IMG/VR virus record: IMGVR_UViG_3300029873_000387
Source: a virus
Taxonomy: Duplodnaviria > Heunggongvirae > Uroviricota > Caudoviricetes
Direction: 5' to 3' (one strand)
Length of the DNA: 64,000 nt
How positions within the stretch are numbered: the first letter of the stretch is position 1; each line of letters opens with the position of its first letter. Below the pieces are notes generated by a model that saw only the letters and a program-made list of their open reading frames with translations, was not told the origin of the DNA and did no database searches. Positions 17,731 to 54,986 of the stretch are shown in pieces. The position numbers and the translations under genes were made by a program.

Positions 17731-17744
17731 GTTATCCCTCCTCA

Positions 17745-20077: not shown

Positions 20078-20380
20078 TTAGAACGGCAGCTGAACACCGG
20101 GGTCTGCATCAAAAATCAGTTTCCTGACGGCGGCGGCAAACTCTTCCTCGTCGATTGCCTGAATATCATCGTAACGCAGGCGTTCAATCAGTTCATGAAC
20201 CGCTTTTGTAATGGCGGTCTCGACAATGATTTCCAAACGGTCAATGCGTTCATTGGCGCTTCCCACCATTCCCTGCATGATATTGTGGTATGCTGCAAGC
20301 TCTCGTTTGGATTCCCTGTTTTTCTCCATCAGTTCGTGAAGCATGATTTCCTGCTGCTGGACTTTCTCTTCCATTGTCAT
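20078..20380 (-). CDS. Hypothetical coiled-coil protein
   Basis: 100-aa ORF, 4-nt overlap with the Thg1-like gene. Confidence 0.45.
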   Translation of the reverse strand: MTMEEKVQQQEIMLHELMEKNRESKRELAAYHNIMQGMVGSANERIDRLEIIVETAITKAVHELIERLRYDDIQAIDEEEFAAAVRKLIFDADPGVQLPF

Positions 20381-21171
20381 AGCCGTCGCTCCACATACTC
20401 TCTGTCTTGTGTAAAGACAGGCGGTTCACGGTCAACGACCCAACGGCTTCTGGAAACCTCCACAGTCGCATCCCCGTTTAATACAGAAACGGCCTCTGTT
20501 ATCCTTGTTTTGATGCAACAGGAGCCACGCTTACAATCCGTGGGGAAATCATTCCAGTTGATATTGCGTTCTTTCCAAAGCATATCTTGGATTTTGTTGC
20601 AGTTCTTCCCGTGCAGCTCTCGCTGACTGAAATTCGCTTGTCCAACAGCTTCTATGCTGTTCCGTGTGGCATCCTGCTGACGCCAAATCAGACAGTTGCA
20701 GACCTCGCCCAGAGGAACGGTGAAAGCTCTGGCATCGAACATGGCAGTTTGGAACTTGCGGCGATAAACGGAAAGGTCGATGCCGCTGTCTTCTTTTTCC
20801 GTCTGCTCGGCAAACGCCTTATTGAACGCCAGCGTCGCCATTGATGCGGCAATGCTGCACATCTTCTGGACATTATAGCCGAACCATGCATCTGTACGAA
20901 TAGAGGCGTAATCGGTCAAAACCAATGTGATTTCATCAGACTGCGTGTATCCGAAGACGCAGCCCTGAATGTTGGCACACAGGAAACGCATGGTTTCCTG
21001 CATGGCAGACATAAGAACACGGTCGAAAGGCTTTCTCATTCCCTTTGTAAAGGTGTGAAAAGCCTTGCCGTCAATACGGATGATGACAGGAACACGACGG
21101 GTCAGGTAATTGCGTGAAACATACTCATACCGTTTCATCCTGTCGCCCAGCGAATCGCGTTGATTTCCCAT
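20377..21171 (-). CDS. tRNA-His guanylyltransferase (Thg1)-like protein
   Basis: MKRYEYVSRNYLTRRVPVIIRIDGKAFHTFTKGMRKPFD...GYTQSDEITLVL matches the Thg1 signature (KFEYV...VVRIDGRNFHKF...KPND...SDEYSFV). Confidence 0.8.
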   Translation of the reverse strand: MGNQRDSLGDRMKRYEYVSRNYLTRRVPVIIRIDGKAFHTFTKGMRKPFDRVLMSAMQETMRFLCANIQGCVFGYTQSDEITLVLTDYASIRTDAWFGYNVQKMCSIAASMATLAFNKAFAEQTEKEDSGIDLSVYRRKFQTAMFDARAFTVPLGEVCNCLIWRQQDATRNSIEAVGQANFSQRELHGKNCNKIQDMLWKERNINWNDFPTDCKRGSCCIKTRITEAVSVLNGDATVEVSRSRWVVDREPPVFTQDREYVERRL

Positions 21172-29641: not shown

Positions 29642-30727
29642 TCAATCCTTTTCTGCCAACAGGAAGTCAGGATTGATGACCTTGAAGCTGATGTTGCTTT
29701 TGACATTTCTCATGACAACGCCCTCGCGCTTCTGACCGTTACGAACCACAGAGTATCCTTTGGAATACTCCACCAGCTCTGCGATGGTATCCGGCAGCGT
29801 TTTGCCCTCTTCAACAATGGGAACGGAGCAAATGCCGTAAGGCGCCAGCAGCTCCTTGATTTCCGCAGTCGTGCATTTGCGGTCAGGGAAAATCAGGTTG
29901 AACGCAAACAATTCATAGCCGCTGATGTGGTACTTGTTGCCCTGAATCTGGTTGCCGCAAATCTCACCCTGTAAAACGATGGTTTCATAATCACCGATGA
30001 GCTGCCGCAGCACATTCTCAATATTGTACTTCTTGGCAACTGTCCAGTAGGAACTGTTGTCCGGTGTACCGAGATAGATATTGCGGCTGCACACGCCGAA
30101 CTCATACTTGCGTCTGGAAACCTTACGCAGATAGTAAGTCGCTGACTGACCGTCCATCTTCTCCGTAACAGAAAACTCTGTTCCCTTGTTACGCTCTGCC
30201 TCAAAGAGCGCAGTAAGATTCTGGATGCGAGTCTCATCGGTCTTAACAATCCAATCAGGGAAACCACCCTTGCGCTTGGACTTCATGAACAGCTTACGAT
30301 ACCACTTGAAGCGCATAAGGAATCGAACCAGTGCGCTTTTAGGTTTGGCGGGTTGCTTGGTCAGCAGCTGCGCCTCCTGCTGTGCTTCAGGGTCATATTT
30401 CTTGATACCCAAAACATCGGTCACATCGGCACCCAAATCGGCGGGAGCGCCATTCGGCAGAATGGACAGCGGGAGAACCAAGCCCTGACTGACCTGACCA
30501 CGAAGCTTAATGGTGCGAACACGGAACTTACGGTCACGCAAAAACTCAAACTCCGGTCTCTCTGGAACAATGGAATCAACTTCGATATAGACGATGTGTT
30601 CCCCAGTGTGGAACTCGCCCTTCTGGACAACGCACTCCCATCCGTCAACCTGAGCAACCTCGATGCGGTCTGCTCCTGCAATCGGACGGAGGGTTGTAAT
30701 CTCACGAATAGTAGCTAAGTGTCGCAT
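29642..30727 (-). CDS. ATP-dependent RNA ligase (Rnl family; DraRnl-like N-terminal domain + nucleotidyltransferase domain)
   Basis: N-terminus MRHLATIREITTLRPIAGADRIEVAQVDGWECVVQKGEFHTGEHIVYIEVDS. Lysine-adenylylation motif TEKMDGQSATYY (KxDG). Confidence 0.75.
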   Translation of the reverse strand: MRHLATIREITTLRPIAGADRIEVAQVDGWECVVQKGEFHTGEHIVYIEVDSIVPERPEFEFLRDRKFRVRTIKLRGQVSQGLVLPLSILPNGAPADLGADVTDVLGIKKYDPEAQQEAQLLTKQPAKPKSALVRFLMRFKWYRKLFMKSKRKGGFPDWIVKTDETRIQNLTALFEAERNKGTEFSVTEKMDGQSATYYLRKVSRRKYEFGVCSRNIYLGTPDNSSYWTVAKKYNIENVLRQLIGDYETIVLQGEICGNQIQGNKYHISGYELFAFNLIFPDRKCTTAEIKELLAPYGICSVPIVEEGKTLPDTIAELVEYSKGYSVVRNGQKREGVVMRNVKSNISFKVINPDFLLAEKD

Positions 30728-33030: not shown

Positions 33031-34323
33031 TTATCCGAAGCTGACCTCGGTTTTATCGGTTCGGATAGAAATAAACACCGGGAACTGAAGACTCTCAGCA
33101 CCGGTGTTTTTATCACTGGATATTTCCTTGTACTTTACTTCGCAAAGCAAACCCGGCAGGTCATCTTTTCCTTGCCAAAATGTTGCTCGCTGCTCGTCGG
33201 TGAACCCGGAGCCGACCTTGACTTCATTCCCCTTATAGTCGAGTACAAGCGCACCTAAAGTCCCTGCCAATCTTCCGCTACCTTCTTCGCAGCGGAGGAT
33301 ACGCAAGTCCATCGTGTAAAAGCGTTTGACTTTCAGGATTCCATTGTGTCGTCTGCACTGGTAGGGAACATCAAGGTTTACCATCAGTCCCTCTTTATCC
33401 TCACGAACCATCTGTTCCAACAGTTCACTGATTTTGCTCTGGTCTTTTCCATGATACAGAACCGGCAGGATACTGACACGGCCATCCTGCGGAATGAAGC
33501 GGTGAAGCTGGTCTAAGAAAGCACGACGATAGCCATAGCAGCCATCGCTCTGCCCCCGGTGGAACTCTTCAACCGTCAGAACATCAAAAATCGTGTAGCA
33601 AATCACCGTTTTATCACCATCGTCTGAGTTGATAATACCGGTAGCTTTGCGGAACGCCTCGTTATCTGAGAGACTGCCCTTCTCACGAAGAGTCAGCTCG
33701 CCGTCAAATACATAGCTATCTTCTTCATCAAAACAGAGAGCATCCAGAATATGGTCAAGTCCTTCATAGGGGACTCCACTTCTTGCGTACAGCCTGCCTT
33801 TGTAATAGGTCGCCCGGACACCGTTCAGCTTTTGTGTTAGCCAGAACTCCGTGCCCTCCTTCAAAGGATACTTATCAATGGGGTACGCCTGCTGAACTTC
33901 CCATTCTGGAATCAGATTGGGGATAACCTTGTTCACGGTCTTTGCCGTGACGCCCAGCCTGAGTGTCTTGGAAAGAAGCTTGATATAAACATCAGCTTCA
34001 TCCGGCGGGCTGCTCTGAACGAATGCACAAACCTGATACACCGTACCGGCGTCCAATGCTTTTCTTTTAGACAACAGTTCGCAGACAGAAAAGATGTCTG
34101 TCATTGTCAGTGTGATGGCTGAGTCATACCGGGTAGGAGAGCGAAGCGTTTGCTCCGAAATCTTATAGGTGAGCATCGGGTTGAGCGCGTAATATAAAAA
34201 ATTACGGAAGTTCGCATCGTCTTGGAACTCCCGTAATAGCTGGGTCTTTCTTATCGAGCCGTTCGCTTCCTGCAAACGGCGTAATTTTACGATAGAATCT
34301 GACAGCGGCGTTGCAGCAATCAA
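33031..34323 (-). CDS. ATP-dependent DNA ligase (nucleotidyltransferase superfamily)
   Basis: Motif I KLNGVRATY (KxDGxR variant), motif III FDGELTL, motif IV EGLMVN, motif V LKVKRF. Confidence 0.7.
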   Translation of the reverse strand: MIAATPLSDSIVKLRRLQEANGSIRKTQLLREFQDDANFRNFLYYALNPMLTYKISEQTLRSPTRYDSAITLTMTDIFSVCELLSKRKALDAGTVYQVCAFVQSSPPDEADVYIKLLSKTLRLGVTAKTVNKVIPNLIPEWEVQQAYPIDKYPLKEGTEFWLTQKLNGVRATYYKGRLYARSGVPYEGLDHILDALCFDEEDSYVFDGELTLREKGSLSDNEAFRKATGIINSDDGDKTVICYTIFDVLTVEEFHRGQSDGCYGYRRAFLDQLHRFIPQDGRVSILPVLYHGKDQSKISELLEQMVREDKEGLMVNLDVPYQCRRHNGILKVKRFYTMDLRILRCEEGSGRLAGTLGALVLDYKGNEVKVGSGFTDEQRATFWQGKDDLPGLLCEVKYKEISSDKNTGAESLQFPVFISIRTDKTEVSFG

Positions 34324-35525
34324 TCTTCATCACCCGCCTTGAAATTATAAATGGGCTTGATAATGGCATCGACGGTTACAGCTGGCTCGATATTACCGAC
34401 AATATCATCCATGCCCTTATAGGCCATCGGGCATTCATCCAGCGTACTGCGCCCAACGGAGGTCGTGTAGATACCCGCCATCTGCTTTTTGAATTCGGAT
34501 ACAGTGAAAGCTTCTTTTGCAGCGCTGCGGCTCATCAGCCGACCGGCACCATGAGGAGCGGAGAAGTTCCAATCCGGATTGCCCTTGCCAGTGCAAAGCA
34601 GGCTGCCATCACGCATATTGATGGGAATCAACAGACGCTCACCGGTTTGTGCAGACACAGAACCCTTACGCAAAATCATGTTATCCACATCAATGTAGTT
34701 GTGAATCGTTGTAAATTGCTCAATCACATGGAATCCCATTCCTTTGACAATGGTATCCATCATCGCCTGACGGTTCAGCCCAGCAAAACGCTGTGCAATT
34801 TTCATATCATGAAGATACTGTTCAAAGAGCTCACCCTCCACATATGCAAGCGATTTGGGAACGGGTGAATGCTTAGATTTCATGGACTTCAGCACTGCTT
34901 GAATCTCTTTCTGGCGGCCATCCGCTTTCAGCTGTTCAATAGCCGCCTCAACCTCTTCATGGCTATAAGAGGTCAGCGCCTTGAAAGCAGCCTCCTGATA
35001 GAAGTTGGCGATTTCTAAACCCAGATGACGGCTGCCGGAGTGGACAACGATATAGATATTCCCATCATCGTCCTTGTTCGCCTCAATAAAATGATTGCCG
35101 CCACCCAATGTACCGATACTGTGATAGGCACGGTCAGTGTTGACCTTTTTTGTGCAGCACAACTGCGACAAATCGATTTCTTTTGCGTAACGATGCGGTG
35201 CGGAACGGATTGCAAAGCCAGACGGAATGCCTTCACGGATAACCTTATCCAACTTCTGCGGTTCGATGTGGGTCTCTTTCAGGCGGATGGTTTCCATACC
35301 GCATCCAATATCAACGCCAACAAGGTTTGGGCAAATCTTATCCTTGATAGTCATGGTGGTTCCGATGGTGCATCCAGCGCCGGCATGAATATCCGGCATC
35401 ATACGAACCTTGCTTCCCTCGACATAGGGTTGGTTCAAGAGATTGATTACCTGAGAAATGGATTCGCTATCGACCACATCGGTAAACACTTTTGCCGAAG
35501 CGTATTTCCCCTGAAGCTCAAGCAT
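34320..35525 (-). CDS. rtcB: RtcB RNA-splicing ligase (3'-phosphate/5'-OH)
   Basis: PDIHAGAGCTIGTT, VDIGCGME and NHAGAGRLMSRS are RtcB metal/GMP-site motifs. Confidence 0.9.
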   Translation of the reverse strand: MLELQGKYASAKVFTDVVDSESISQVINLLNQPYVEGSKVRMMPDIHAGAGCTIGTTMTIKDKICPNLVGVDIGCGMETIRLKETHIEPQKLDKVIREGIPSGFAIRSAPHRYAKEIDLSQLCCTKKVNTDRAYHSIGTLGGGNHFIEANKDDDGNIYIVVHSGSRHLGLEIANFYQEAAFKALTSYSHEEVEAAIEQLKADGRQKEIQAVLKSMKSKHSPVPKSLAYVEGELFEQYLHDMKIAQRFAGLNRQAMMDTIVKGMGFHVIEQFTTIHNYIDVDNMILRKGSVSAQTGERLLIPINMRDGSLLCTGKGNPDWNFSAPHGAGRLMSRSAAKEAFTVSEFKKQMAGIYTTSVGRSTLDECPMAYKGMDDIVGNIEPAVTVDAIIKPIYNFKAGDED

Positions 35526-38964: not shown

Positions 38965-40122
38965 TTATCTTAAATCGTCTTTGATAAGCCGCAGGACATC
39001 TGTCTCCATTTTTTCGTTGGTGTGCTTCACGATGGCATCGATAGTCTCCGGCTCTACCATGCGATAGTAGCTATGTAAGCCCTGCATAGTTTGCACATCT
39101 TCTCTCGGCCACGAGATGCCCTTGCGTTTATCGGTAATGTAGTTGTAAAGCATGGACTGGAACTGGCGCTTCTTCTTATGGCCGACAGTAATTTCATTGT
39201 CCTTGTTGAGCATAACACCAAGATTCCAGTTACGACCTGCGGAAGAGCCGTATCTCGTTTTGCTTTCGTTGATGGTGAACGGCGCTCCAAATTCATGCAG
39301 CGTATCCACCACGAGTTTTTCTACACGATGCACATCGAAATCAACCTTAGACGAAATGATGAAGTCATCGGCATATCTGGTGTAAATGAACCGCTGCTTG
39401 TCAAAATCACGGAATGCATTGGCAAGCTTATAGTCAACAGGAATCATCATCACATTGGTAATCAGCGGAGAAAGTGGAGTTCCCTGCGGCAGACCTCCAT
39501 TGAGAAAAGCCAAATCCAAGGCCTTCCGCAACTCTGCCTCGCCGTTGGGAAACTTTACGATTTCGCTGAATGGGAACACCATAGAAAGCATTTTGATAAC
39601 ATAATCCAGCGTGGTGCTACCAAAGAAATCGTGCAAATCCAGCTTGCCGAACCATTTGCTGTTGTTTTTCTGATGGCGCTTGACCGCATCAACCGTACAT
39701 CTGTTTTTTACATAGGCGAATGCAGAAGTGTGATACAACGCATGGAAATCTTCCTCAAAAATAGTCTTGAGATTCCGCAATGCGTTCATCAGCTCCGGTT
39801 TAGGGGCATCAATACGACGCAAACCACCAGACTTTTTGGGGATGTGGAATGTTTCATACAAAGTACTGCGTTCCTGTGCGCGAAGCGCCTCCGTTTGCTC
39901 ATTAAAGCGCACCAGTTTGCAGATAAGAGCGTCCGTATCAATGCGGCTTGTGAAATGCTCACTTACCGTTTCATATGCATAGGTTCGTGTATTAGAAACA
40001 TTTGTGTTTAATATGGTTGGCGCTTGGAAGTTTTGAAAGAGAAACTCTTCCAGTGTCATTTGGTGATAAATCGGGGATTGCATGACCGTGATATATACCA
40101 TCGCCCTATGCCTCCTTTTCAT
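38965..40122 (-). CDS. Reverse transcriptase (standalone; palm + thumb only)
   Basis: RT motifs IPKKSGGLRRIDAP (1/2), LDLHDFFGS (A), GLPQGTPLSPLITN (B'), YTRYADDFII (C, YADD). 385 aa. No endonuclease or maturase extension. Confidence 0.85.
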   Translation of the reverse strand: MKRRHRAMVYITVMQSPIYHQMTLEEFLFQNFQAPTILNTNVSNTRTYAYETVSEHFTSRIDTDALICKLVRFNEQTEALRAQERSTLYETFHIPKKSGGLRRIDAPKPELMNALRNLKTIFEEDFHALYHTSAFAYVKNRCTVDAVKRHQKNNSKWFGKLDLHDFFGSTTLDYVIKMLSMVFPFSEIVKFPNGEAELRKALDLAFLNGGLPQGTPLSPLITNVMMIPVDYKLANAFRDFDKQRFIYTRYADDFIISSKVDFDVHRVEKLVVDTLHEFGAPFTINESKTRYGSSAGRNWNLGVMLNKDNEITVGHKKKRQFQSMLYNYITDKRKGISWPREDVQTMQGLHSYYRMVEPETIDAIVKHTNEKMETDVLRLIKDDLR

Positions 40123-40354
40123 AGTCGTAACTGTAACCTACATGAGTGTTGCTGCGTTTGAATCAAAAGAAGCTCATCTGCAGGGAGCTGAGTGAGCTGC
40201 ATCTGCCAGTATCTTTTTAGTTAAGTTGAGAATAATTGTCGTGATTTGGGTGGGTTTTGTGTAGGATAATACTTGACAAGCCAGGTTTGCTGTGCTATTC
40301 CGGCTGTTGGTTCCCTGGTGGATGTCCAAGGTGCCTTCGGTGACCCCGGAGGAG

Positions 40355-40430
40355 TCGATGGTCATCCTTCTGGGCAGGCGGTGTTTTCCTCCCCGACAAT
40401 TTGTTACTTCAGCCTTTGGCGTGAAGCCCC
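40355..40430. repeat. Conserved noncoding element, copy A (upstream of the RT)
   Basis: CCTCCCCgaCAAtTTGTTACTTcaGCCTTTGGCGtgAAGC, preceded by GGCAGGCGGTGTTTTCC. Same orientation as copies B and C. Confidence 0.6.
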
Positions 40431-40466
40431 CGAAAAGGGTAATTCGTTACAGTTCAATGGCGCATT

Positions 40467-41276
40467 TTAAGGCTGCGCCACACCTAATAGCTCGAACAGT
40501 TCTGCATCTGTGCAGGTTTCGTTTTTCAATGCGTATGGTTTGATGTGGGCTACGCCGTTTTCATCAACCTCTACCACTGTTTCCGGTTTCAGCCGACACA
40601 TCGGCCTAAGCCCCGCGCAGTCACGGGGATATTTCCTCTCACAATACCCAGACCTACTAAGAGCCAAAGCATAGTCTCTGAATCCATCCTGCTTGCCTGC
40701 CAACCAGAAATTCATGTAAGACTCCCAACTGAAATTACCAAACCGGCCTTTTTTGTTAGCACAGTCTTCTGTTGCTTTGGGACGAATGCCTTTCTTGGAA
40801 AACAGCTTCAACTTCAATTGGTCATCAAGGATATCGGTGATGGTAGGAAGTCGAATGAGGGAACTGAGCGTCTCACCGTCAACCACATACTGCTGCATCT
40901 GCAAGCTATCGAGTTCATAATCTTCAAAGAAGTATAGAAACCCATAATGGTTGCGATAGCTTTGTGCTCGGTTGCTGAAAACATTATTCGGAGGGGCATC
41001 TGCTTCATGAGTTTTGCGAAACCAATCGTCTCTGTCGCTGTTTAGGTATGTATGAATATTGGACAGACGATAGTCGGGATTGCCAAGATTGCGCCTGCCG
41101 TCTCCAGTTCTTTCCGGTGCATCAAAGCAAAGATAATCCACGGCACACTCGGTGATAAAATCGCAGTTTGGACTGCCTTTCAGCCAAACAACAGGGTGCG
41201 GCTCATCATTGTTGACACCGTAAGAGCCAATGATGACCGGTGTGCCGACCTTAAGGCGTTCAACGGTAGTATCCAT
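40467..41276 (-). CDS. Hypothetical protein
   Basis: 269-aa ORF downstream of the E1-like gene. HPVVWLKGSPNCDF is only vaguely E2-like. Confidence 0.45.
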   Translation of the reverse strand: MDTTVERLKVGTPVIIGSYGVNNDEPHPVVWLKGSPNCDFITECAVDYLCFDAPERTGDGRRNLGNPDYRLSNIHTYLNSDRDDWFRKTHEADAPPNNVFSNRAQSYRNHYGFLYFFEDYELDSLQMQQYVVDGETLSSLIRLPTITDILDDQLKLKLFSKKGIRPKATEDCANKKGRFGNFSWESYMNFWLAGKQDGFRDYALALSRSGYCERKYPRDCAGLRPMCRLKPETVVEVDENGVAHIKPYALKNETCTDAELFELLGVAQP

Positions 41277-41310
41277 AATGCACCGCCCTCCTTTCGTTTC
41301 TCATTGCTGA

Positions 41311-41988
41311 TTAAAAAGCGTCCAACATAAAGTTGAACGCATCCAAGATGATAAGCTTTTTCAACCCCTTGCCACGAATGAAGTTGACAAAGTTGGCAAC
41401 GCCAAGTGCGCAGATAGCTCTGACAGTCGGTGCAACACCCAGCGTAATGCCGCAGGCGGAGACAGGCGTTTCCTCAGCCGCTTCTTCATGACTGAAATTC
41501 ATGGAGTTCAACAGGTCTTTCTTCATCTTGTAGTCAGACCAGTCAGCAGCATAATGCTGTGCGGATTCCAGCAGAGTTCGGAAATCCAGCATCGCTTTGA
41601 CATAAGGATTGTCAAAATGCTTTTCAACAATCTGGCGGCGCAGTTCGATATTGTCCACGCAGAGGAAGACATAGCCGGAAAGCTGCTGACCACTCCACCC
41701 CTTGCCGTAAAGCTTGAGGTCATCTTTGATTTCGGGATTGATTTCAAACAGAATATCTGCCAGAGCCTCCACTTTGGGGCGACCGATATCCTGCTGGCGG
41801 AAAATCTGGTTTGCCAGATTGTGCGGATTCACGACATCCATATCCCACAGGGCGAGATTGGTGATGCCAAGACGGACGAGGTTCTCTGCCAGTGTTGCGC
41901 CGACAGAACCACATCCAACAATGTTAATGCGAGCCTCAACCTTTTCAGGCTGAAAATACTCGTAGCTTTTAGACAAATCCATCGCCAT
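41311..41988 (-). CDS. E1-like (ThiF/MoeB-family) adenylyltransferase
   Basis: Rossmann motif NIVGCGSVGATLAENLVRLGITNLALWDMDVVNPHNLANQ. Short (225 aa), as in minimal bacterial E1-like proteins. Confidence 0.75.
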   Translation of the reverse strand: MAMDLSKSYEYFQPEKVEARINIVGCGSVGATLAENLVRLGITNLALWDMDVVNPHNLANQIFRQQDIGRPKVEALADILFEINPEIKDDLKLYGKGWSGQQLSGYVFLCVDNIELRRQIVEKHFDNPYVKAMLDFRTLLESAQHYAADWSDYKMKKDLLNSMNFSHEEAAEETPVSACGITLGVAPTVRAICALGVANFVNFIRGKGLKKLIILDAFNFMLDAF

Positions 41989-41990
41989 TA

Positions 41991-42977
41991 TTACTCACCT
42001 CCAAGATACTGGTCGCTGTAGCCTCCATAGTGATACACAGAGTCATCGTCATCTTCGTCCCACATGGACTGCTGACTGGCGTTCTTTCCTTGCCAACCCG
42101 CACCGATTCTTGTGCGCGGTTTCTCGCCGGACTTTTCAGACTTCTTGTCCGATTTCTTATCGTCAGACTTCTTATCGGACTTCTTACCGCCCTTGTCCTC
42201 TTTCTCATCCTTTTTGCTTCCCGGAAGAGGATTGTAAGGGGCGCCGGAATAAGGCGGGCGATTGCCACTGTAGCCGCCATATCCGCCATAGTTGCCATAG
42301 GTATAGCTTTTCTGCTTGACCATATCCTTGGCGGTCTTGAGGAACTCGGCCAGCCCCTCATGCTCACCCTCAAGCTTGACGGTGATGTCCTTATCTTCAA
42401 ACAGGACATTCTTCTTGAGGTCATAGATTTTATTTGTACTGACAAACGACTTGTTCCAAATCATGAAGATGTAGAAATCATCGTCCCCCAGCATATTGAG
42501 GATTTCCTCCTGATGATTGAGGTCTACAGAGGAAGGACTGGTCGGCATATTGACATGGGAATGCCCCTGCATATGAATGTTGTTGAAACGCTCATCGTCT
42601 GCATTCTGCATCAACCACTCAGCGTACTTCTCGGTATCCATCTCAACCGTGGTGCCAGAAACCTCCTGCGGATAAACCACGATGTCTTCGATGATGTACT
42701 CATCTACGGCTTCGTCGGCTGCACGATGTGCAACACCATGCCAAGCGACCTCTTTATCGAACTCCTTGATAAGGAGTGCCATCTTTGCCCATGCTCCAGC
42801 GGTAAAGACGACAGTTGCTTTTCTGTCACCACAGGTGAACACCTTCGTGAATGACAGTTTTCCATCTGCAAGCTTTGTGAGTTGCAGAGCCTTTTCAAAG
42901 TCCGCACGGCACTCAGCCATGTACTGCTCGGTCATCTTAATGGGTTTACTCATTTTGCGCCTCCTCCGCTTACTCAT
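41991..42977 (-). CDS. JAB/MPN (JAMM) metalloprotease with a low-complexity tail
   Basis: Exact JAMM motif HSHVNMPTSPSSVD (H-x-H-x7-S-x2-D). The C-terminus carries Gly/Tyr and Lys/Ser/Asp repeats. 4-nt overlap with the E1-like gene. Confidence 0.75.
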   Translation of the reverse strand: MSKRRRRKMSKPIKMTEQYMAECRADFEKALQLTKLADGKLSFTKVFTCGDRKATVVFTAGAWAKMALLIKEFDKEVAWHGVAHRAADEAVDEYIIEDIVVYPQEVSGTTVEMDTEKYAEWLMQNADDERFNNIHMQGHSHVNMPTSPSSVDLNHQEEILNMLGDDDFYIFMIWNKSFVSTNKIYDLKKNVLFEDKDITVKLEGEHEGLAEFLKTAKDMVKQKSYTYGNYGGYGGYSGNRPPYSGAPYNPLPGSKKDEKEDKGGKKSDKKSDDKKSDKKSEKSGEKPRTRIGAGWQGKNASQQSMWDEDDDDSVYHYGGYSDQYLGGE

Positions 42978-44433
42978 TTGTCTGTGCTTCTTGCTGCTCC
43001 AACCAAGTGATGGCTTCGTTGGGCTTTACAACACGACCATCAGGCAGTTCGATGCAGCGATTGTTGCTGCCGTTGCCCCACATAGACCGCATAAACGAAG
43101 TCATAACCGCAGAGTCACCCCAGTTAAGACTCTTGCAGGAAGCAATGCACTGCTCCAACGCACCGATGTAATCGTGATTCTTGAGGAGCCTGTTGATAGT
43201 GGTGGTATAGTTGCCCATGCAGTTGTAGTCGCTGATGTGGGGATTGGGAAGATAATCAGCGTACTCTGCGCCAAAGCTCCGATGCCCCTGCGGAGAAACG
43301 CTGCCGTTGAGATCAAAGCGATACGATGCGCAGACACGAATTTTCAAACGTGGCTCTTCGCTGACAAAGATTTCAGTCATCAGCCTTTTCATCTTCTCAG
43401 CAGCTGCACCTGTATGGCCGGAACCACCATCAGGACGATAAACGAAGCTGGTAGCACGATTGATGATTCGCTCCGCCATATCCCGGTCAAAATATTCCAG
43501 GCAGTCCTTGACCGTGAAATACATATCGGTGTTGGTCACACGCTCCAGAACCAGCTTGGTATTACACAGGAAGTACTCCATGATTTCGGAGTCCTCACCG
43601 CCATCGGCAACTTTCTGCTCAAGCCCCAGCAAACGAATGCACTGCTCATTACGCTTCGTGAACTGTTCACCGATATTGTCATTCAGGCGGGTGATTTCTC
43701 TATCAATGTTCTGAATCATCTGCCTGACCCGGTCGCACTCAATCTGCTCATAGCGGGTTTCAAACCCCTTCAACAGCTGGCGGATTCTTGCGGTTCGGAA
43801 ATCATACCGTTCTGCAAGTTTGGCAAGACAGCGTTCATACTCTTCTGAGTTCTTCTCACGAAGGGACTTGACCAACGCAAGTTCATCCTCAGTGATGCCC
43901 TCCTGCTGGTTCAGATACCACGGCAGGAATGCAAGGATAGAAACCTGCAGGTAGTGCATTTTGCGGATGTCGAGGCTGTCCGCAAAGATAATAACGCTTT
44001 TAAGTTCGGGATTGATATAGCAATCTACGGCGAAAGACTTGCGGTAGAACTCTGCGAACTTTTCGAGGCGATGATACCCCGCATACACAGAGGCAAACTT
44101 GTCAGCGATGATTTTCATGTTGGCAAAATTGCTGTCCGAATCTGCCCGCAAACTATGAACAACAACCTGTCCCGTCGCGTTCATATCATAGTTGTTGCAG
44201 ACAGCCAAAACGGCTCTGTCCGCTGGAACACTCCGAATAGTGTCTGCCGTATAATCGGAAGAGCCGAACACCAGATTGACGGACTCTCCCTCTTTGATTC
44301 GAGGTGCAACTAAGGCACGAAGCGTCGCAAGGAAAGAGCAGTCGTTGCCGAAAGCACCGCCGGTAATGTTGGTGAAGTAGCTATTGGCAGCTTCCGTGGT
44401 AAACGGCGTTGACGAAATGCTTGTTTTGAACAT
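42970..44433 (-). CDS. Large hypothetical protein of the E1/JAB gene cluster
   Basis: Start set at MFKTSIS (AGAGGTG RBS), because the longer ORF-track start overlaps tRNA-Leu. Confidence 0.5.
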   Translation of the reverse strand: MFKTSISSTPFTTEAANSYFTNITGGAFGNDCSFLATLRALVAPRIKEGESVNLVFGSSDYTADTIRSVPADRAVLAVCNNYDMNATGQVVVHSLRADSDSNFANMKIIADKFASVYAGYHRLEKFAEFYRKSFAVDCYINPELKSVIIFADSLDIRKMHYLQVSILAFLPWYLNQQEGITEDELALVKSLREKNSEEYERCLAKLAERYDFRTARIRQLLKGFETRYEQIECDRVRQMIQNIDREITRLNDNIGEQFTKRNEQCIRLLGLEQKVADGGEDSEIMEYFLCNTKLVLERVTNTDMYFTVKDCLEYFDRDMAERIINRATSFVYRPDGGSGHTGAAAEKMKRLMTEIFVSEEPRLKIRVCASYRFDLNGSVSPQGHRSFGAEYADYLPNPHISDYNCMGNYTTTINRLLKNHDYIGALEQCIASCKSLNWGDSAVMTSFMRSMWGNGSNNRCIELPDGRVVKPNEAITWLEQQEAQTNE

Positions 44434-44460
44434 AGGAACACCTCTATTCATTTTGTTATA

Positions 44461-44545
44461 TGGTGGGGAATATCGGAGTCGAACCGATATGGTATGCACC
44501 AGCGGATTTTAAGTCCGCAGCGTCTGCCTGTTCCGCCAATTCCCC
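44461..44545 (-). tRNA. tRNA-Leu (anticodon UAA), type II
   Basis: GGGGAAT-TGGCGGAACAGGCAGACGC-TGCGGA-CTTAAAA-TCCGC-TGGTGCATACCATAT-CGGTTCGACTCCG-ATATTCCCC-A-CCA. Confidence 0.85.
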
Positions 44546-44596
44546 ATAGAAAGAGCCGCCCATTCGGGCGGCTCGGCTGGTTTAATTGCTTGTGAA

Positions 44597-44824
44597 TCAG
44601 GCATTATCGGCCTTGACCACATTCAGCAGGAAGCACTTCTCGGTGATACCGAACTGAGCGAAGGTCTTGTCGAGGTCGCCGGGGTTCAAAGAGGAACCGT
44701 CGAGGTGCATGACGCCACGGGTGTAGTCAACGCCGTTTGCCTCCAGGCAGGCACGCAGGGTAGTGGACTCGTCGATGATAACGGACTCGCGCTTGACATT
44801 GTTGCCAACAGTAACCTTAATCAT
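44597..44824 (-). CDS. Small beta-grasp protein, possibly ubiquitin-like (ThiS/MoaD-like pattern), ending in ...KADNA with no terminal GG
   Basis: MIKVTVGNNVKRESVIIDESTTLRACLEANGVDYTRGVMHLDGSSLNPGDLDKTF... follows the ThiS pattern M.I.V......V.....TL..L...G......V.L.G..L....L. Confidence 0.4.
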   Translation of the reverse strand: MIKVTVGNNVKRESVIIDESTTLRACLEANGVDYTRGVMHLDGSSLNPGDLDKTFAQFGITEKCFLLNVVKADNA

Positions 44825-44906: not shown

Positions 44907-45305
44907 TTACTGAGCGACCGTGATGTTGCTCATCACAGTTGCCTTCTCACCCGCAATCTCATCGAGAACGGCGGGCAGCTTCTCCTCAAGCTTGTTGAGG
45001 TTGATGATGGCGGCGCCCAGACGGTCGGCAACCCAATCCTTGACATCGCCGGTCACGCCGTCAAGGAACAGGGTGATACACGCCAGCTTCTCATCATCGC
45101 GGGTCTCAGCGCCGAAAGAAGCGCCGAAAGCGTTGATGTTACCGGCACCACTGGTGGTACCCACAGCGAAGATAGGCTCCTTACCGTCCTCGCCGCCCTT
45201 GAGAACCAGCTCCTTGGGGCGGTACTTCTCAATGGTCTTGATGTCCTCCAGCTTCATTGCGGAAGTTACGACAGCTGCGTCGCCTGCGATAGTGATTTTT
45301 GCCAT
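44907..45305 (-). CDS. Hypothetical protein (Gly/Ala-rich)
   Basis: 132-aa ORF with a hairpin terminator immediately downstream, suggesting high expression. Confidence 0.5.
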   Translation of the reverse strand: MAKITIAGDAAVVTSAMKLEDIKTIEKYRPKELVLKGGEDGKEPIFAVGTTSGAGNINAFGASFGAETRDDEKLACITLFLDGVTGDVKDWVADRLGAAIINLNKLEEKLPAVLDEIAGEKATVMSNITVAQ

Positions 45306-45497: not shown

Positions 45498-46172
45498 TTA
45501 AGTGCAGAAGCCGAAAGCGACGCCATTACTGTCGTTGGCGTAGTAAAAGTTGGCGCCGCCGTTGCTGTTGACACGACAGAAAAAATCGCTGTAGCCAGAA
45601 CGAGGAGAACGCAACATGGTGTACTCGGGATTACCGTTGCGAAGCTTGAACCATGCGACATCCTCCTGACGATACCATTCGTACCAATGTCCCTCGCCGG
45701 GCGCAGAGTAGATATTGCGCCCATACAATTCCTTCTCGGACTTTATCCAGAAAGAATCCAGTGTCTCAATGATACGATTTTCTCCTGTGTACACATCGGC
45801 TGTCTGCTTAATGACTGGCGTGACAACATCCAAAATCTCATCGGGAATCAGACGATGGATGTCGCCGTCCGCATCGTTGAGCCGGTGGCGAATTTGGGTT
45901 GCCTCCCACGACCCCTCGTTGGTGTCCCGTCTATTCCACGGGTAAGTGTTAGGCAGACAGTCTACCATCTCCCACGAAATGGGAGCCAAAGAACCGTCGC
46001 TTGTTTTGTCATGATTGAAGCCGATGATGCGAAACTGAACCTGCGCACCGTTCTTCAGCACAACATTGCGGTAATCTCCGAGCTGCAAGAAATCAGCCGC
46101 ATATTTTCCAAGCCCTTTCAAAGAACGCCAGGGCATATTATCCAAGCAGTTTGGCATCTCACAGACCTCCAA
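45498..46172 (-). CDS. Hypothetical protein
   Basis: 224-aa ORF, Trp/Asn/Gly-rich. Confidence 0.5.
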   Translation of the reverse strand: MEVCEMPNCLDNMPWRSLKGLGKYAADFLQLGDYRNVVLKNGAQVQFRIIGFNHDKTSDGSLAPISWEMVDCLPNTYPWNRRDTNEGSWEATQIRHRLNDADGDIHRLIPDEILDVVTPVIKQTADVYTGENRIIETLDSFWIKSEKELYGRNIYSAPGEGHWYEWYRQEDVAWFKLRNGNPEYTMLRSPRSGYSDFFCRVNSNGGANFYYANDSNGVAFGFCT

Positions 46173-48207: not shown

Positions 48208-49026
48208 TTATCTCCAGTTGGTGGACACGCGGCCATCCGGATGGATAATGATATTGGAATAGCCGTCACCATAATCATTGTGACGCTGCTGCCACATATC
48301 ACCGAGTGTTACACGGGCGTGTTTTCCTGCATAGTCAAAGGTTGCGTACACAAAGAAATCACCGATTCTGAATGTGTGTACATCAACATCCGCATCCTGC
48401 TGCAAATCGTTCCAGATGTCTACGGGGTAATCCTTCTTTTCAAGGCCACTCAGGAACCGGAAAGAAAAGCTGCTGGCATCCATCTCCATGTAGTCCTTGA
48501 TAGAAGCAAGCGTAGGATTCTCAACTATCGTTTGAACTGTACACCCCGGAAAACCAGCCGGGTCTGTCCAGACATAATCGTTGCGTGAAAGGTTGATGTG
48601 TGCCAGTCCATTTAACTCCGTGCTGAAACCCGTGGTGTTGATGGAGCAAAACACATCATTACCGTTCTTACGATAAGTCTCAACGATATTGGCGATGTGC
48701 TTGGGATAAAGGCCGGGTTCGCCGCCCGTGATAGACAGCCGTGCGTTGGGATGCTCCTGCAAAACCCGCTTCAACGCCTCGATTTGTGCATCGAAATCAT
48801 TGTCTCCCGACATAGGGTTCTGCCGTTCCAAGCAGAAGGGGCAGTGGAACGGACACTCCTGTGTCGTAATCATCTGGACATTGATGCGGTAATAGAGAGG
48901 GCGTCCGAGAGAAGTTTTGGCTGTCCTGTTCGCCAGCCTATACTGCAAGTCGTTGCTCATTTCGGCCCGGATTTCCTCGTAGGAAGATATGTGTGGTATG
49001 TAGTTCATCTTGCTGCTCATCGGCAC
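48208..49026 (-). CDS. Radical SAM enzyme
   Basis: CPFHCPFC (CX3CX2C) and SITGGEP (SAM glycine-rich motif). 272 aa. Confidence 0.75.
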   Translation of the reverse strand: MPMSSKMNYIPHISSYEEIRAEMSNDLQYRLANRTAKTSLGRPLYYRINVQMITTQECPFHCPFCLERQNPMSGDNDFDAQIEALKRVLQEHPNARLSITGGEPGLYPKHIANIVETYRKNGNDVFCSINTTGFSTELNGLAHINLSRNDYVWTDPAGFPGCTVQTIVENPTLASIKDYMEMDASSFSFRFLSGLEKKDYPVDIWNDLQQDADVDVHTFRIGDFFVYATFDYAGKHARVTLGDMWQQRHNDYGDGYSNIIIHPDGRVSTNWR

Positions 49027-52475: not shown

Positions 52476-52983
52476 TGTAAGCCCCTTTCCATTGTTGATA
52501 ACGGGAGGAAGTTTCACCAAACGGATACAGCCGCGATACTCCGACTTCCAAGGATGCACTTTTTAATCTTATCCCGTGGTCATGGCAGCATTTCCATAAC
52601 ACTTGGACACTTTCGTAGTCCCCAACGCCTTGTAAAGCTTTCAGAATTTTGGGTGCCCCCTCACTTACCTTCACTAATACAAGGACTAAGCGTTAAGCGG
52701 AAAACCACTCCACGGAATCGTACCGTGCCAGCCTTACGGCATCGAACCTCGCTTCAAGGTGAACCATGTTTCCCCGATAATCAGATACACTCCGCCAAAG
52801 CCATATCGCCGGATTTCAAAGATTCCGTGGATACCAAAGTGCCAAACCATATTGCCTCCTATGTGTCTGCGAACCATTCACCATGACCGTTCTGAAACTC
52901 CTGTCGTTTTTCATATCAGAAAACACTGCAATTTATTGCGCTGAGTTCGACAGTTCTATGGTGAAAGGCGGCAAACTGAGAAA

Positions 52984-54428: not shown

Positions 54429-54986
54429 TTTGAAATGCCCCTTTCACAGTTTTTTCTTGGGTGATAACAGGTTTATCACTCAATGAAGCCGCCGAAGAAA
54501 ACCCTCGGCGGCTCTATCAATGATAAACCCGATATTTGAAATGGTTCCGGCTCTGCATTTCGGCGCATGGGGTATATTTTTCCCCACAGCCGTTGCAGTA
54601 TCGAACGGAACACGCACCATTTCCGATACTCATTTCTATCGGGGACTGTTCTGTTCAATTCGCAATACTTGACCAAATTCGGCTTTCATACCTATATGCC
54701 CTTGCTTTCGGCTCCTCGGAGCGCAATACCCTTGGGTAGAAAACTCGGACGATACTACTTACTTTCAAAAGTCGTTCTTGTATAGCCATCAGTTATGCAA
54801 GCCGCACTTAGGTTCATAGGCGCAAACCTCCGGGGATTTTCACTATCTCGTACCATGAGCCTAACTCTCATGCACCGGCGACGCCTTTGATAGCAAAGGT
54901 ACTCTATTGACATTCGCTCAATAGTGCGTTGACTTGCCATTCCCGGAAGTGGCGAACATCTCCGCTTGTATTCCGTGGCTTGCCTT

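What the first reader, a model, noticed from the sequence alone, without database searches (positions are those of the whole stretch)
40467..44824. Phage-encoded ubiquitin-like conjugation-type module: Ubl-like beta-grasp + large protein + JAB/JAMM protease + minimal E1-like enzyme
In transcription order on the minus strand: a 75-aa ThiS/MoaD-pattern beta-grasp protein (44597-44824), a tRNA, a 487-aa unknown protein, a JAB protein with an exact HxHx7Sx2D JAMM motif and a Gly/Tyr/Lys/Ser-rich tail (41991-42977), and a 225-aa ThiF/E1-like Rossmann protein (41311-41988). The JAB and E1-like genes overlap by 4 nt. A 269-aa protein follows (40467-41276). E1 + JAB + Ubl is the signature of bacterial ubiquitin-like conjugation systems (Bil/ISG15-like, CBASS Cap2/Cap3, PRTRC). 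A complete-looking set on a phage genome suggests either phage use of Ubl conjugation (for example virion assembly) or an anti-defence decoy or deconjugase. The beta-grasp protein ends ...KADNA rather than GG, so JAB-dependent C-terminal processing may be required.
Basis: partly seen in the sequence, partly recalled or inferred. Interest (0 to 1): 0.75.

Follow-up and report, generated by a model that had tools for sequence, protein, structure and literature searches.

The report
Phage ubiquitin-like conjugation cassette with retron
A large family of gut-bacterial viruses carries its own complete ubiquitin-style protein-tagging kit (tag, activating enzyme, probable conjugating enzyme, trimming protease), always next to a retron; bacteria use such kits against viruses, and one has not been described as a core part of a virus.

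Summary

Differences from Bil: the Ubl ends Asn-Ala, not Gly (a few relatives have Asn-Gly or Gly-Ala, some with short extensions). The E1 is a minimal single domain in which Asn replaces the adenylation-essential Arg. The E2-like domain sits in a large novel protein.

The cassette also includes a 132-aa unknown protein and an adjacent retron (covarying ncRNA plus RT). It is conserved in every related phage contig with enough flank, even where the flanking genes differ. The 269-aa protein is dispensable.

Most likely this is a phage-encoded Ubl conjugation cascade. Its targets and role are unknown. I rate it a new variant of a known kind, of high interest.

The parts
44907..45305 (-). p132: 132-aa protein of unknown fold and function, an obligate upstream partner of the cassette
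   Evidence: ORF. Co-occurs with p487 in 110/111 loci, and is kept in L054 and L232, whose flanks differ. No hit in Pfam, NCBIfam, PHROGs, PADLOC or PDB. Not related to the Ubl.
44597..44824 (-). Ubl: 75-aa ubiquitin-like beta-grasp protein; the conserved tail ...VVKADNA carries the probable reactive C-terminus (Ala75)
44553..44574 (-). GC-rich hairpin followed by a T-run, directly after the Ubl stop (terminator- or attenuator-like)
   Evidence: Consensus scan: 9-bp stem with 8 G-C pairs. This is a pattern match only. The number of such sites in the region is not above the shuffled expectation.
44461..44545 (-). tRNA-Leu(TAA) embedded between the Ubl gene and p487
   Evidence: ARAGORN and Rfam. 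Present at the same place in many related loci but not all.
42970..44433 (-). p487: novel multidomain protein with an N-terminal alpha/beta domain (1-170), a long helix (224-276) and a C-terminal UBC/RWD-like domain (about 283-487) that is the candidate E2 (active site N397-x-H399-x5-C405-x-G407)
41991..42977 (-). JAB/JAMM metallopeptidase (likely true start 42953) with a low-complexity Gly/Tyr/Lys-rich tail that carries conserved PYNPL and EKPRTRIGAGW motifs
   Evidence: E76 and H139xH141x7S149xxD152 are invariant. PADLOC JAB 5e-4. 37/50 members hit Pfam Prok-JAB, all below threshold. Best PDB profile hit is Rpn11, aligned at the motif, E 0.11. Start site. The tail is absent in L054.
41311..41988 (-). 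Minimal E1-like adenylating enzyme (225 aa, one ThiF domain): G25xG27xxG30, D49/D51, N57-L-A-N60-Q61, K72, D112...R117, C179
   Evidence: Pfam ThiF 1.6e-23. PADLOC Cap2-type E1-E2 5e-17. PDB hits to UBA7, UBA1, MoeB and the Cap2 E1 domain. Conservation of motifs. N60 aligns with BilD R246. A GGAGGTG Shine-Dalgarno lies inside the JAB's last codons. A hairpin sits at the E1 stop, 41318-41340.
40467..41276 (-). p269: accessory gene between E1 and the retron, not part of the conserved core
   Evidence: Present in only 90/107 loci and poorly conserved, 30-50% identity. The N-terminus weakly matches a PHROG annotated as Hoc-like head decoration.
40129..40454 (-). Retron-type non-coding RNA: a2 arm AACTGTAAC (40454-40446), candidate branching G (40445), two conserved hairpins, a variable middle, and a1 arm GTTACAGTT (40137-40129)
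   Evidence: Conserved ends in alignment A7. The arms co-vary while staying complementary. An exact arm pair was found in 159/209 RT loci. In the two hairpins, 10/13 pairs show compensatory changes. No Rfam match.
38965..40122 (-). Retron-type reverse transcriptase (likely true start 40101, 378 aa)
   Evidence: Pfam RVT_1 4.7e-19. NCBIfam retron_St85 4.7e-52, 177 bits, below the cut-off of 235. PADLOC RT_II-A 1e-47. Next to the Ubl module in 105/107 loci. Every RT-seeded locus with enough flank has E1, JAB and p487 upstream.

Best explanation
This is a phage-encoded ubiquitin-like protein conjugation cascade of the bacterial Bil type.

**Proposed steps**
1. The 225-aa E1, probably a homodimer like MoeB or the Cap2 E1 domain, uses ATP to adenylate the C-terminal carboxylate of the 75-aa Ubl at Ala75.
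2. The Ubl may pass through a thioester on E1 Cys179.
3. It is handed to Cys405 in the UBC-like C-terminal domain of p487.
4. p487 transfers it to amino groups on target proteins. The large N-terminal part of p487 probably selects the targets.
5. The JAB peptidase trims the short extensions that some Ubl variants carry after the Asn-Ala end, and reverses conjugates.

**Shown here**: the folds and domains, the catalytic motifs and their invariance, the gene order, the co-inheritance, and the pattern of the Ubl tail.

**Inferred**: every chemical step, the E2 role of p487, and the targets.

The cassette also always includes p132 and sits next to a retron. Because it is a deeply conserved core block lying among replication and RNA-repair genes, it most likely serves the phage's own infection programme (host takeover or counter-defence) and is not a swappable accessory defence island.
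For: - E1: ThiF 1.6e-23, with the nucleotide loop, Asp, Lys, D..R and Cys179 all conserved.
- JAB: complete invariant JAMM site, with Prok-JAB hits in 37/50 members.
- Gene order Ubl-E2-JAB-E1 is the Bil order.
- The Ubl tail has small residues at the last two positions, plus an optional short extension, the pattern reported for BilA. The divergent L054 Ubl has Gly at the position of Ala75, followed by 'AM'.
- A C-terminal Ala adenylated by a bacterial E1 domain of the same minimal size has a structural precedent, E. cloacae CdnD ...GRFA with Cap2 374-600.
- The Ubl is much more conserved (71-97%) than its enzymes (p487 35-69%).
- Co-inheritance: JAB 132/132, E1 132/132, Ubl 110/111. The cassette is intact in L054 and L232 despite unrelated flanks or low identity.
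Against: - I could not inspect the model coordinates to confirm that Cys405 lies at the E2 active-site position.
- The E1 replaces the Arg that is essential for adenylation in BilD (R246) with an invariant Asn60. It lacks a CYS insertion domain, an inactive adenylation domain and CxxC zinc sites, and it has no pairwise similarity to BilD.
- The Ubl lacks the C-terminal Gly that defines all characterised Ubls.
- No target, no E3 and no biochemical data are available.
Confidence: 0.66

Rival explanations
1. The whole block is one system: a phage-borne retron (ncRNA + RT) whose partner or effector is the Ubl cascade. Either retron msDNA/RT controls or senses when conjugation fires, or the Ubl cascade modifies the RT or its targets. 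This extends the best explanation; it does not exclude it.
For: - The RT is next to the module in 105/107 loci.
- Seeding from the RT instead, every locus with enough flank has E1, JAB and p487 upstream, down to 47% RT identity, while the genes in between and beyond (p269, phosphoesterase) come and go.
- In L068 the retron lies between JAB and E1.
- L054 keeps cassette plus RT with unrelated flanks, and so does L232.
- The ncRNA is a genuine structured retron RNA.
- No classical retron effector is consistently adjacent.
Against: - All loci come from one broad phage lineage, so linkage could be inherited synteny.
- Two loci, L063 and L148, lack the RT within 7-8 kb.
- Terminator-like hairpins after the E1 suggest separate transcription units.
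- No known retron type has such partners, and no paper links them.
Confidence: 0.35
2. The system activates the Ubl without an E2, as in sulfur-carrier or SAMP/TtuB/Urm1 systems. The E1 alone activates the Ubl, either for thiocarboxylate formation (for example tRNA thiolation, fitting the tRNA-rich neighbourhood) or for direct E1-driven conjugation. In that case p487 is a non-catalytic RWD-like scaffold or something unrelated.
For: - The E1 is a minimal MoeB/ThiF-sized domain whose best NCBIfam hits are ThiF models.
- The region is full of tRNA genes and tRNA-repair enzymes.
Against: - There is no Gly-Gly end.
- The E1 scores far below the ThiF/MoeB cut-offs, and only the N-terminal ~70 residues match well.
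- No rhodanese domain, PP-loop ATPase, ThiG/MoaE or cysteine desulfurase was found among the ORFs scanned.
- An invariant Asn/His/Cys/Gly cluster in p487 is unexpected for a passive RWD scaffold.
- The gene order matches Bil.
Confidence: 0.12
3. The module is an anti-defence device. The phage JAB strips host Bil or CBASS conjugates (a Cap3/BilC mimic), and the Ubl/E1 act as decoys or competitors for host machinery. Conjugation to targets is not the purpose.
For: - Host Bil and type II CBASS depend on conjugation that JAB enzymes reverse.
- The module lies among probable counter-defence genes (tRNAs, RtcB, RNA ligase).
- The JAB has an unusual long tail with conserved short motifs that could dock onto foreign partners.
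Against: - A lone JAB would be enough for deconjugation. Here four to five proteins, including a highly constrained private Ubl, an intact E1 and the Cys-bearing p487, are co-inherited without exception.
- The Ubl's Asn-Ala tail differs from the Gly ends of the host systems the JAB would have to recognise.
Confidence: 0.1
4. The block is a superinfection-exclusion island: a Bil-like system and a retron, each a defence system captured from bacteria, carried by the phage to block competing phages. The chemistry is the same as in the best explanation; the beneficiary differs.
For: - Both component types are known anti-phage defences in bacteria.
- Phages are known to carry defence genes against rivals (abstract of 10.1101/2025.02.27.640495).
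- An integrase-like gene in the window leaves lysogeny possible.
Against: - From general knowledge, defence islands on mobile elements turn over quickly. This block is retained across relatives whose p487 has drifted to 23-35% identity.
- It shows no close similarity to bacterial Bil proteins.
- All 13 cellular-genome hits are MAG contigs, none from an isolate genome.
Confidence: 0.15

Closest known systems
Bil (bacterial ISG15-like) systems, types I and II (BilA Ubl, BilB E2, BilC JAB, BilD E1)
   Same: - The same four component types in the same order, Ubl-E2-JAB-E1.
- The best structural match of the Ubl is BilA, and BilB is among the E2-fold matches of p487.
- The Ubl tail carries an optional short extension, as described for BilA, where the JAB removes it.
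   Different: - Encoded as a conserved core block of phage genomes, not in bacterial defence operons.
- The Ubl ends Asn-Ala instead of Gly.
- The E1 is 225 aa with one adenylation domain, against 535 aa with IAD, AAD and CYS domains. It has Asn in place of the essential Arg and no pairwise similarity to BilD.
- The E2-like domain is embedded in a 487-aa novel protein with no sequence similarity to BilB.
- There are extra obligate partners: p132 and the retron.
Type II CBASS Cap2 (E2-E1 fusion) and Cap3 (JAB)
   Same: - The E1's best defence-library hits are Cap2-type E1-E2 proteins, 5e-17, and the Cap2 E1 domain is found among solved structures.
- The Cap2 E1 domain is the same minimal size and adenylates a substrate that ends in Ala.
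- A JAB partner is present.
   Different: - No CD-NTase or effector was detected in the neighbourhood.
- E1 and E2 are separate genes.
- The substrate is a dedicated beta-grasp Ubl, not the tail of an enzyme.
Phage lambda/T1 tail-assembly gpI (Ubl domain) and gpK (JAB + NlpC/P60)
   Same: This is the only described phage-encoded Ubl + JAB pair. There the JAB cleaves the Ubl domain.
   Different: In lambda there is no E1 or E2, the Ubl is fused to a structural tail protein, and the genes lie in the tail module. Here the Ubl is free-standing, E1 and an E2-like protein are present, and the block lies among replication and RNA-repair genes.
ThiS/MoaD-ThiF/MoeB sulfur carriers and SAMP/TtuB/Urm1 dual-function systems
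   Different: There is no Gly-Gly end, no sulfur-transfer or cofactor genes were found, the E1 scores well below the family cut-offs, and a Cys-bearing E2-like protein is present.
Retrons, nearest type II-A / St85 family
   Same: The RT clade matches. There is an upstream structured ncRNA with covarying a2/a1 arms and a G directly after a2.
   Different: The retron is encoded by a phage and no classical effector is adjacent. Its constant neighbours are Ubl-cascade genes. It scores below NCBIfam's retron cut-off and matches no Rfam RNA family.
E1-like genes of Asgard-archaeal viruses (Nidhogg) and minimal E1 genes of Xanthomonas/Erwinia jumbo phages
   Same: These are viral ThiF/E1-like genes.
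   Different: Those viruses carry only E1-like genes. No JAMM or E2-type motif lies near the jumbo-phage E1. In the Asgard case, hijacking of host ubiquitin was proposed, not a self-contained cascade.

Membership tests
Bil system (type I/II) | Four genes encoding Ubl, E2, JAB peptidase and E1, in the order Ubl-E2-JAB-E1 | tested here: met
   The order is 75-aa Ubl, p487 (E2-like by fold), JAB, E1. The E2 identity is supported by fold only.
Bil system (type I/II) | Ubl with a fully conserved C-terminal glycine as the conjugation site | tested here: not met
   The family ends ...N-A, with or without an extension. Gly occurs at the last position only in L054, and at the penultimate position in L223.
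Bil system (type I/II) | E1 (BilD) with an inactive and an active adenylation domain, a mobile Cys domain, and an adenylation-essential Arg | tested here: not met
   The E1 is a 225-aa single ThiF domain. Asn60 stands at the position of BilD Arg246. BLASTP against BilD gives E > 2.
Bil system (type I/II) | E2 (BilB) recognisable by sequence, with a catalytic Cys and an adjacent His | tested here: inconclusive
   [not shown]
Bil system (type I/II) | Bacterial anti-phage defence function; Ubl conjugated to a phage tail protein | not testable with these tools
   The cassette is encoded on phage contigs. Its function and targets are unknown.
Type II CBASS (Cap2/Cap3) | CD-NTase and effector genes alongside an E2-E1 fusion (Cap2) and a JAB (Cap3) | tested here: not met
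   PADLOC finds only E1-domain and weak JAB hits. It finds no CD-NTase or effector among 8 neighbouring proteins. E1 and the E2-like protein are separate genes.
ThiS/MoaD sulfur-carrier pathway | Carrier ends Gly-Gly; E1 is an equivalog of ThiF or MoeB; ThiG/ThiH/MoaE or sulfurtransferase genes nearby | tested here: not met
   There is no Gly-Gly. Best ThiF model scores 77.5 bits against a cut-off of 159, and MoeB 50.9 against 376. None of the partner genes is among the 30 window ORFs scanned. The rest of the window's ORFs were not scanned.
PRTRC system | ParB-related protein, PRTRC ThiF and PRTRC proteins A-F, recognised by NCBIfam/TIGRFAM models | tested here: not met
   The only hit is PRTRC_ThiF at 25.6 bits against a cut-off of 144.75. 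No PRTRC_A, B, C, E or F hit for any cassette protein.
JAB/JAMM metallopeptidases | Catalytic Glu plus HxHx7Sx2D zinc site in an MPN fold | tested here: met
   E76 and H139, H141, S149, D152 are invariant. Prok-JAB is hit by 37/50 members below threshold. PADLOC JAB 5e-4. Rpn11 aligns at the motif.
E1/ThiF adenylating enzymes | Rossmann GxGxxG, catalytic Asp, Arg of NLxRQ, Lys, Mg-binding Asp | tested here: inconclusive
   All are present and conserved except the Arg, which is an invariant Asn60. Whether adenylation proceeds without it is not testable here.
UBC/E2 superfamily | UBC alpha/beta fold with a catalytic Cys downstream of an HPN-type flap | tested here: inconclusive
   [not shown]
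Retron | Retron-clade RT plus an upstream ncRNA with a1/a2 inverted repeats and a priming G | tested here: met
   RT: (below the NCBIfam cut-off). Arms and G. Hairpin covariation. msDNA synthesis is not testable here.
Retron | Adjacent effector of a known retron type (I-XIII) | tested here: not met
   The constant neighbours are the Ubl-cascade genes. PADLOC gave no retron-effector hit among the neighbours scanned.

The most novel reading that the evidence does not exclude
The seven-part block (p132, Ubl, p487/E2-like, JAB, E1, retron ncRNA, RT) is a single machine. It would be a phage-encoded retron coupled to a ubiquitin-like conjugation cascade that uses an Asn-Ala C-terminus instead of Gly-Gly. 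That would be a new retron type and the first self-contained ubiquitination-like system used by a bacteriophage during infection, for example to tag and disable host defence proteins or to mark rival phage proteins, with msDNA as sensor or regulator.
Probability: 0.3. Interest if true: 0.92.

Novelty: new variant of a known kind. Interest (0 to 1): 0.78.

Why it matters
Ubiquitin-like conjugation in bacteria has so far been characterised as a host weapon against phages (Bil, CBASS; the role of Bub is still open). On the phage side, only a JAB-plus-Ubl tail-assembly trick is described, in lambda.

Here a complete, self-contained cascade is a deeply conserved core block of a very large, uncultured family of human and animal gut phages. 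The p487 family alone has about 2,200 clusters at 50% identity, all unannotated. If the cascade is active, phages also write ubiquitin-like marks. That opens the question of what they tag.

It would also extend E1 chemistry to an Asn-Ala terminus and to an Arg-less minimal E1. It would define a new E2-like family that sequence searches cannot detect. And it would link a retron to protein conjugation for the first time.

The predictions are directly testable by co-expressing four small genes in E. coli.

Tried and rejected
- **PRTRC membership**: rejected. No PRTRC models hit except a weak ThiF match.
- **Thiamine or molybdopterin pathway**: rejected. Scores are below cut-off, there is no Gly-Gly and no partner genes were found.
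- **MccB-like chemistry on a C-terminal Asn**: considered because of the ...DNA tail. Rejected because the terminal residue is always a small Ala or Gly, and one relative has Gly in place of the Asn.
- **p269 as part of the module**: rejected as dispensable.
- **p132 as a second Ubl**: no relation by hhalign.
- **Sequence routes to name p487**: all empty. These were Pfam, NCBIfam, PHROGs and PADLOC on the window protein, Pfam on 36 members, a PDB profile of the C-domain, and hhalign to BilB.
- **Foldseek against PDB for p487**: nothing significant.
- **AFDB50 library**: unavailable.
- **PDB profile for p132**: nothing.
- **Nucleotide search of deposited phages**: no match.
- **Protein search of deposited phages**: one unannotated faecal scaffold only.
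- **Jumbo-phage E1 neighbourhood**: examined for a parallel module. No JAMM or E2 motif was found.
- **Acutalibacter muris hit**: it lies on a 223-kb contig of GCA_948693885.1. Nothing here shows it to be a cultured isolate; I judged it a MAG from the accession style only.
- **Literature**: searches for a phage-encoded full Ubl cascade, or for a retron linked to E1/JAB/Ubl, found none. The library is incomplete, so this is absence of evidence only.

Full report
**1. The observation**

- 75 aa at 44597-44824
- 487 aa at 42970-44433
- 328 aa at 41991-42977
- 225 aa at 41311-41988
- 269 aa at 40467-41276

tRNA-Leu(TAA) lies at 44461-44545, between the first two. The longer 509-aa reading of the second ORF would run into the tRNA. 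All homologues begin MFK..., so 487 aa is right.

The window is a phage genome. It encodes DNA polymerase, primase, a DnaB-type helicase, an exonuclease and DNA ligase. It also carries a conspicuous RNA-repair set: RtcB, RNA ligase, a CCA-adding enzyme, a Thg1-like enzyme and ten tRNAs. It is identical to an IMG/VR viral contig.

Two details in the finding are wrong or doubtful. The JAB stop (41993-41991) and the E1 start (41988) are 2 nt apart, not overlapping by 4. The JAB most likely starts at the second ATG (42953), which has a strong Shine-Dalgarno and matches most homologues.

**2. What the parts are**

*E1.* Pfam ThiF at 1.6e-23. Its nearest defence-library relatives are the E1 halves of CBASS Cap2 proteins (5e-17). 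Among solved structures it matches UBA7, UBA1, MoeB and the isolated Cap2 E1 domain.
- Across the family the nucleotide loop, D49/D51, K72, D112...R117 and C179 are conserved.
- One canonical residue is missing. The Arg of the NLxRQ motif is an invariant Asn60, and mutating the equivalent Arg (R246) abolishes adenylation in BilD.

*JAB.* The single sequence is marginal in Pfam (E 0.095).
- The family has an invariant catalytic Glu76 and an invariant H139-x-H141-x7-S149-x2-D152.
- 37 of 50 members hit Prok-JAB, all below threshold.
- PADLOC JAB models hit at 5e-4.
- The closest solved sequences are Rpn11, aligned exactly at the motif.
- The Gly/Tyr/Lys-rich tail varies, but it carries conserved PYNPL and EKPRTRIGAGW motifs. 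The tail is absent in the most divergent relative.

*The 75-aa protein.* It has no sequence-family hit.
- With an alignment of 35 homologues, AlphaFold gives pLDDT 90.2, a beta-beta-alpha-beta-beta-beta order and a floppy last six residues.
- A profile comparison aligns it end to end with E. aridi BilA (E 0.012), pairing VVKADN with SLKAGV.

*The 487-aa protein.* It belongs to a very large unannotated family: 2,187 clusters at 50% identity, nearly all full length. No Pfam model matches any of 36 diverse members.
- The model (pLDDT 89, pTM 0.52) has an N-terminal alpha/beta domain, a 50-residue helix and a C-terminal alpha/beta domain.
- In 36 sequences of 35-69% identity, the invariant residues of the C-domain are N397, H399, C405 and G407. 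They lie just after the last strand of the sheet, where E2 enzymes carry the HPN flap and catalytic Cys.
- This is moderate evidence only. Foldseek found nothing. No sequence method links the domain to E2s or to BilB. I could not inspect the coordinates.

**3. The tail of the Ubl**

In the close family the last residues ...LLNVVKADNA are almost invariant. Of 120 database homologues, 87 end exactly there. Others add A, AA, AAA, HQ, ANS or up to eight residues.

Over the widest sample the pattern is [K/N]-x-x-[N/G]-[A/G] followed by 0-3 residues. Examples are ...KTDNATSK...KLDNANA...IPHKANA and ...VKADGAR. The most divergent copy ends ...KNANG-AM, with Gly at the position of Ala75.

Small residues at the two terminal positions, plus a disposable extension, is the pattern reported for BilA, where the JAB BilC removes the extension. 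A C-terminal Ala is not without precedent: E. cloacae CdnD ends ...GRFA, and that Ala is the residue adenylated in the Cap2 E1 domain, a construct of about 227 residues.

The window's Ubl therefore probably needs no trimming. The JAB would act on variants that carry extensions, and on conjugates.

**4. What travels together**

Related loci came from independent seeds: the E1 and p487 proteins, a p487 alignment and an RT alignment. Together they cover viral contigs, MAGs and metagenomes.

Wherever the flank allows, a p487 gene is accompanied by:

| Partner | Loci |
|---|---|
| JAB | 132/132 |
| E1 | 132/132 |
| Ubl | 110/111 |
| p132 | 110/111 |
| RT | 105/107 |
| p269 | 90/107 |

. Many loci are near-duplicates, so these are consistency counts, not independent events.

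More telling are the divergent cases.
- RT-seeded loci down to 47% RT identity (p487 23-35%) all have E1, JAB and p487 upstream, while p269 and the phosphoesterase come and go.
- L054 keeps p132, Ubl, p487, JAB, E1, an RNA gap and the RT between completely different flanking genes.
- L232 does the same at 26-56% identity.
- In L068 the retron sits between JAB and E1.

The Ubl is far more conserved than its enzymes, 71-97% where p487 is 35-69%.

The order Ubl-E2-JAB-E1 is the order of Bil operons.

All 13 hits in cellular genomes are MAG contigs of gut Clostridia, and none is from an isolate genome. A hit labelled Acutalibacter muris lies on a 223-kb contig of GCA_948693885.1; I found no evidence that it is a cultured isolate.

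**5. The retron**

The RT (38965-40122, likely start 40101) is retron-like: NCBIfam St85 family 4.7e-52, below its cut-off, and PADLOC RT_II-A 1e-47.

The roughly 330 nt upstream are non-coding in all relatives. They have these features:
- a conserved 5' arm, AACTGTAAC, followed by G;
- two hairpins in which 10 of 13 pairs show compensatory changes;
- a variable middle;
- a 3' arm, GTTACAGTT, that ends 5-33 nt before the RT.

The two arms co-vary while staying complementary, for example GAATTGTAAC/GTTACAATTC and AAGCATGTAAT/ATTACATGCTT. An exact arm pair was found in 159 of 209 RT loci. No Rfam family matches.

This is a genuine retron RNA. Whether it works with the Ubl cascade is open. Linkage in both directions and the interleaved L068 arrangement speak for coupling. 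Two RT-less loci (L063, L148) and terminator-like hairpins after the Ubl gene and at the E1 stop speak for separate units.

**6. Best explanation and rivals**

The best-supported reading is a phage-encoded, Bil-like Ubl conjugation cascade. The E1 adenylates Ala75 of the Ubl. Transfer passes, possibly through C179, to C405 of the E2-like domain of p487. From there the Ubl goes to amino groups on targets chosen by the rest of p487, perhaps with p132. The JAB handles processing and reversal.
- Shown: folds, motifs, order, co-inheritance and tail pattern.
- Inferred: all the chemistry and all the targets.

I put this at about 0.66. The main doubts are the moderate E2 evidence, the Arg-to-Asn change in the E1 and the non-Gly terminus.

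The rivals are:
- E2-independent, sulfur-carrier-like or SAMP-like activation (0.12);
- an anti-defence deconjugase or decoy (0.10);
- a superinfection-exclusion island with the same chemistry (0.15);
- as an extension and not an alternative, a single retron-plus-Ubl machine (0.35).

PRTRC, the thiamine and Moco pathways and MccB-like chemistry were tested and rejected.

**7. Comparison with what is known, and novelty**

The module works like Bil but fails several membership tests for it. There is no C-terminal Gly, no BilD-type E1 architecture, and no sequence similarity of the E1 or the E2-like domain to Bil proteins. Its E1 is closer to the Cap2 E1 domain, but it is not CBASS, since no CD-NTase is present and E1 and E2 are not fused.

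On the phage side, the literature I could search describes:
- the lambda gpK/gpI JAB-Ubl pair in tail assembly;
- lone E1-like genes in Asgard viruses.

I also found lone minimal E1 genes in cultured Xanthomonas and Erwinia jumbo phages, with no JAMM or E2 motif nearby.

Among about 50,000 deposited phage genomes, only one unannotated faecal scaffold carries the cassette. No paper in the searchable library reports a complete phage-encoded cascade, or a retron linked to E1/JAB/Ubl genes. That library is incomplete.

I therefore class it as a new variant of a known kind. If the retron coupling is real, it may be more than that.

Noticed in passing
window 38965-40454 (minus strand): A complete phage-encoded retron. 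It has a structured ncRNA with covarying a2/a1 arms (40454-40446 and 40137-40129), a G after a2, two covarying hairpins, and a retron-type RT. It matches no Rfam family and is almost always adjacent to the Ubl cassette.
   Followed up: yes
window 52602-52730, 54517-54651, 54828-54899 (minus strand): Three Rfam RAGATH RNAs score above their gathering thresholds: RAGATH-36 at 151 bits, RAGATH-4 at 112 bits and RAGATH-16 at 96 bits. They cluster within about 2.3 kb of this phage genome.
   Followed up: no
window 15366-17748, 20377-21171, 29642-30727, 34320-35525, plus 10 tRNA genes between 36927 and 50122: An extensive tRNA and RNA-repair toolkit: a CCA-adding enzyme, a second nucleotidyltransferase, a Thg1-like tRNA-His guanylyltransferase, RNA ligase, RtcB and ten tRNAs. 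It suggests heavy investment against host anticodon nucleases.
   Followed up: no
window 44461-44545; L017, L039, L041, L060, L065, L067, L138, L144: tRNA-Leu(TAA) sits inside the cassette, between the Ubl gene and p487, in many relatives. It is absent in others (L036, L049, L054, L061, L064, L068). In L030 ARAGORN calls an odd tRNA-Tyr(ata) at that place.
   Followed up: partly
window 41991-42350 (C-terminal tail of the JAB): The low-complexity tail varies in length but keeps two short conserved motifs, PYNPL and EKPRTRIGAGW, followed by an acidic/aromatic end. The tail is missing altogether in L054. These may be docking motifs.
   Followed up: partly
[not shown]
   Followed up: partly
L041/L200, L206, L067, L176 (Ubl genes): Some Ubl variants carry a 6-7-residue insertion (for example ...FGYDGTDGHDRCYLL...) just before the last strand. 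The KADNA end is unchanged.
   Followed up: no
window 40467-41276 and 45498-46172: p269 and p224 are variable accessory genes. p224 weakly matches Pfam DUF6273, and p269 matches the N-terminus of a PHROG annotated as Hoc-like head decoration. They flank the cassette in some lineages only.
   Followed up: partly
L233 (Xanthomonas phage PhiXhv-12, PV764601.1 143445-144128): Cultured Xanthomonas and Erwinia jumbo phages encode a full-length minimal E1 (29% identical), annotated 'thiamine biosynthesis protein'. It lies next to an 892-aa hypothetical protein. No JAMM or E2-type motif is nearby.
   Followed up: partly
L054 11066-12334: Directly downstream of the RT in this divergent relative is a 422-aa ORF with an HNH-like motif (...HHIESRKTGGD...CETCHNAYH...), judged by eye only. 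It may be a mobile nuclease or an IscB-like gene.
   Followed up: no
window 10516-11466: An integrase-like ORF (phrog_5830, 9e-14) means the phage may not be strictly lytic, despite its large replication module.
   Followed up: no
window 48208-49026: An ORF containing a radical-SAM domain (PHROG hits at 1e-10) lies about 3 kb upstream of the cassette, among tRNA genes.
   Followed up: no
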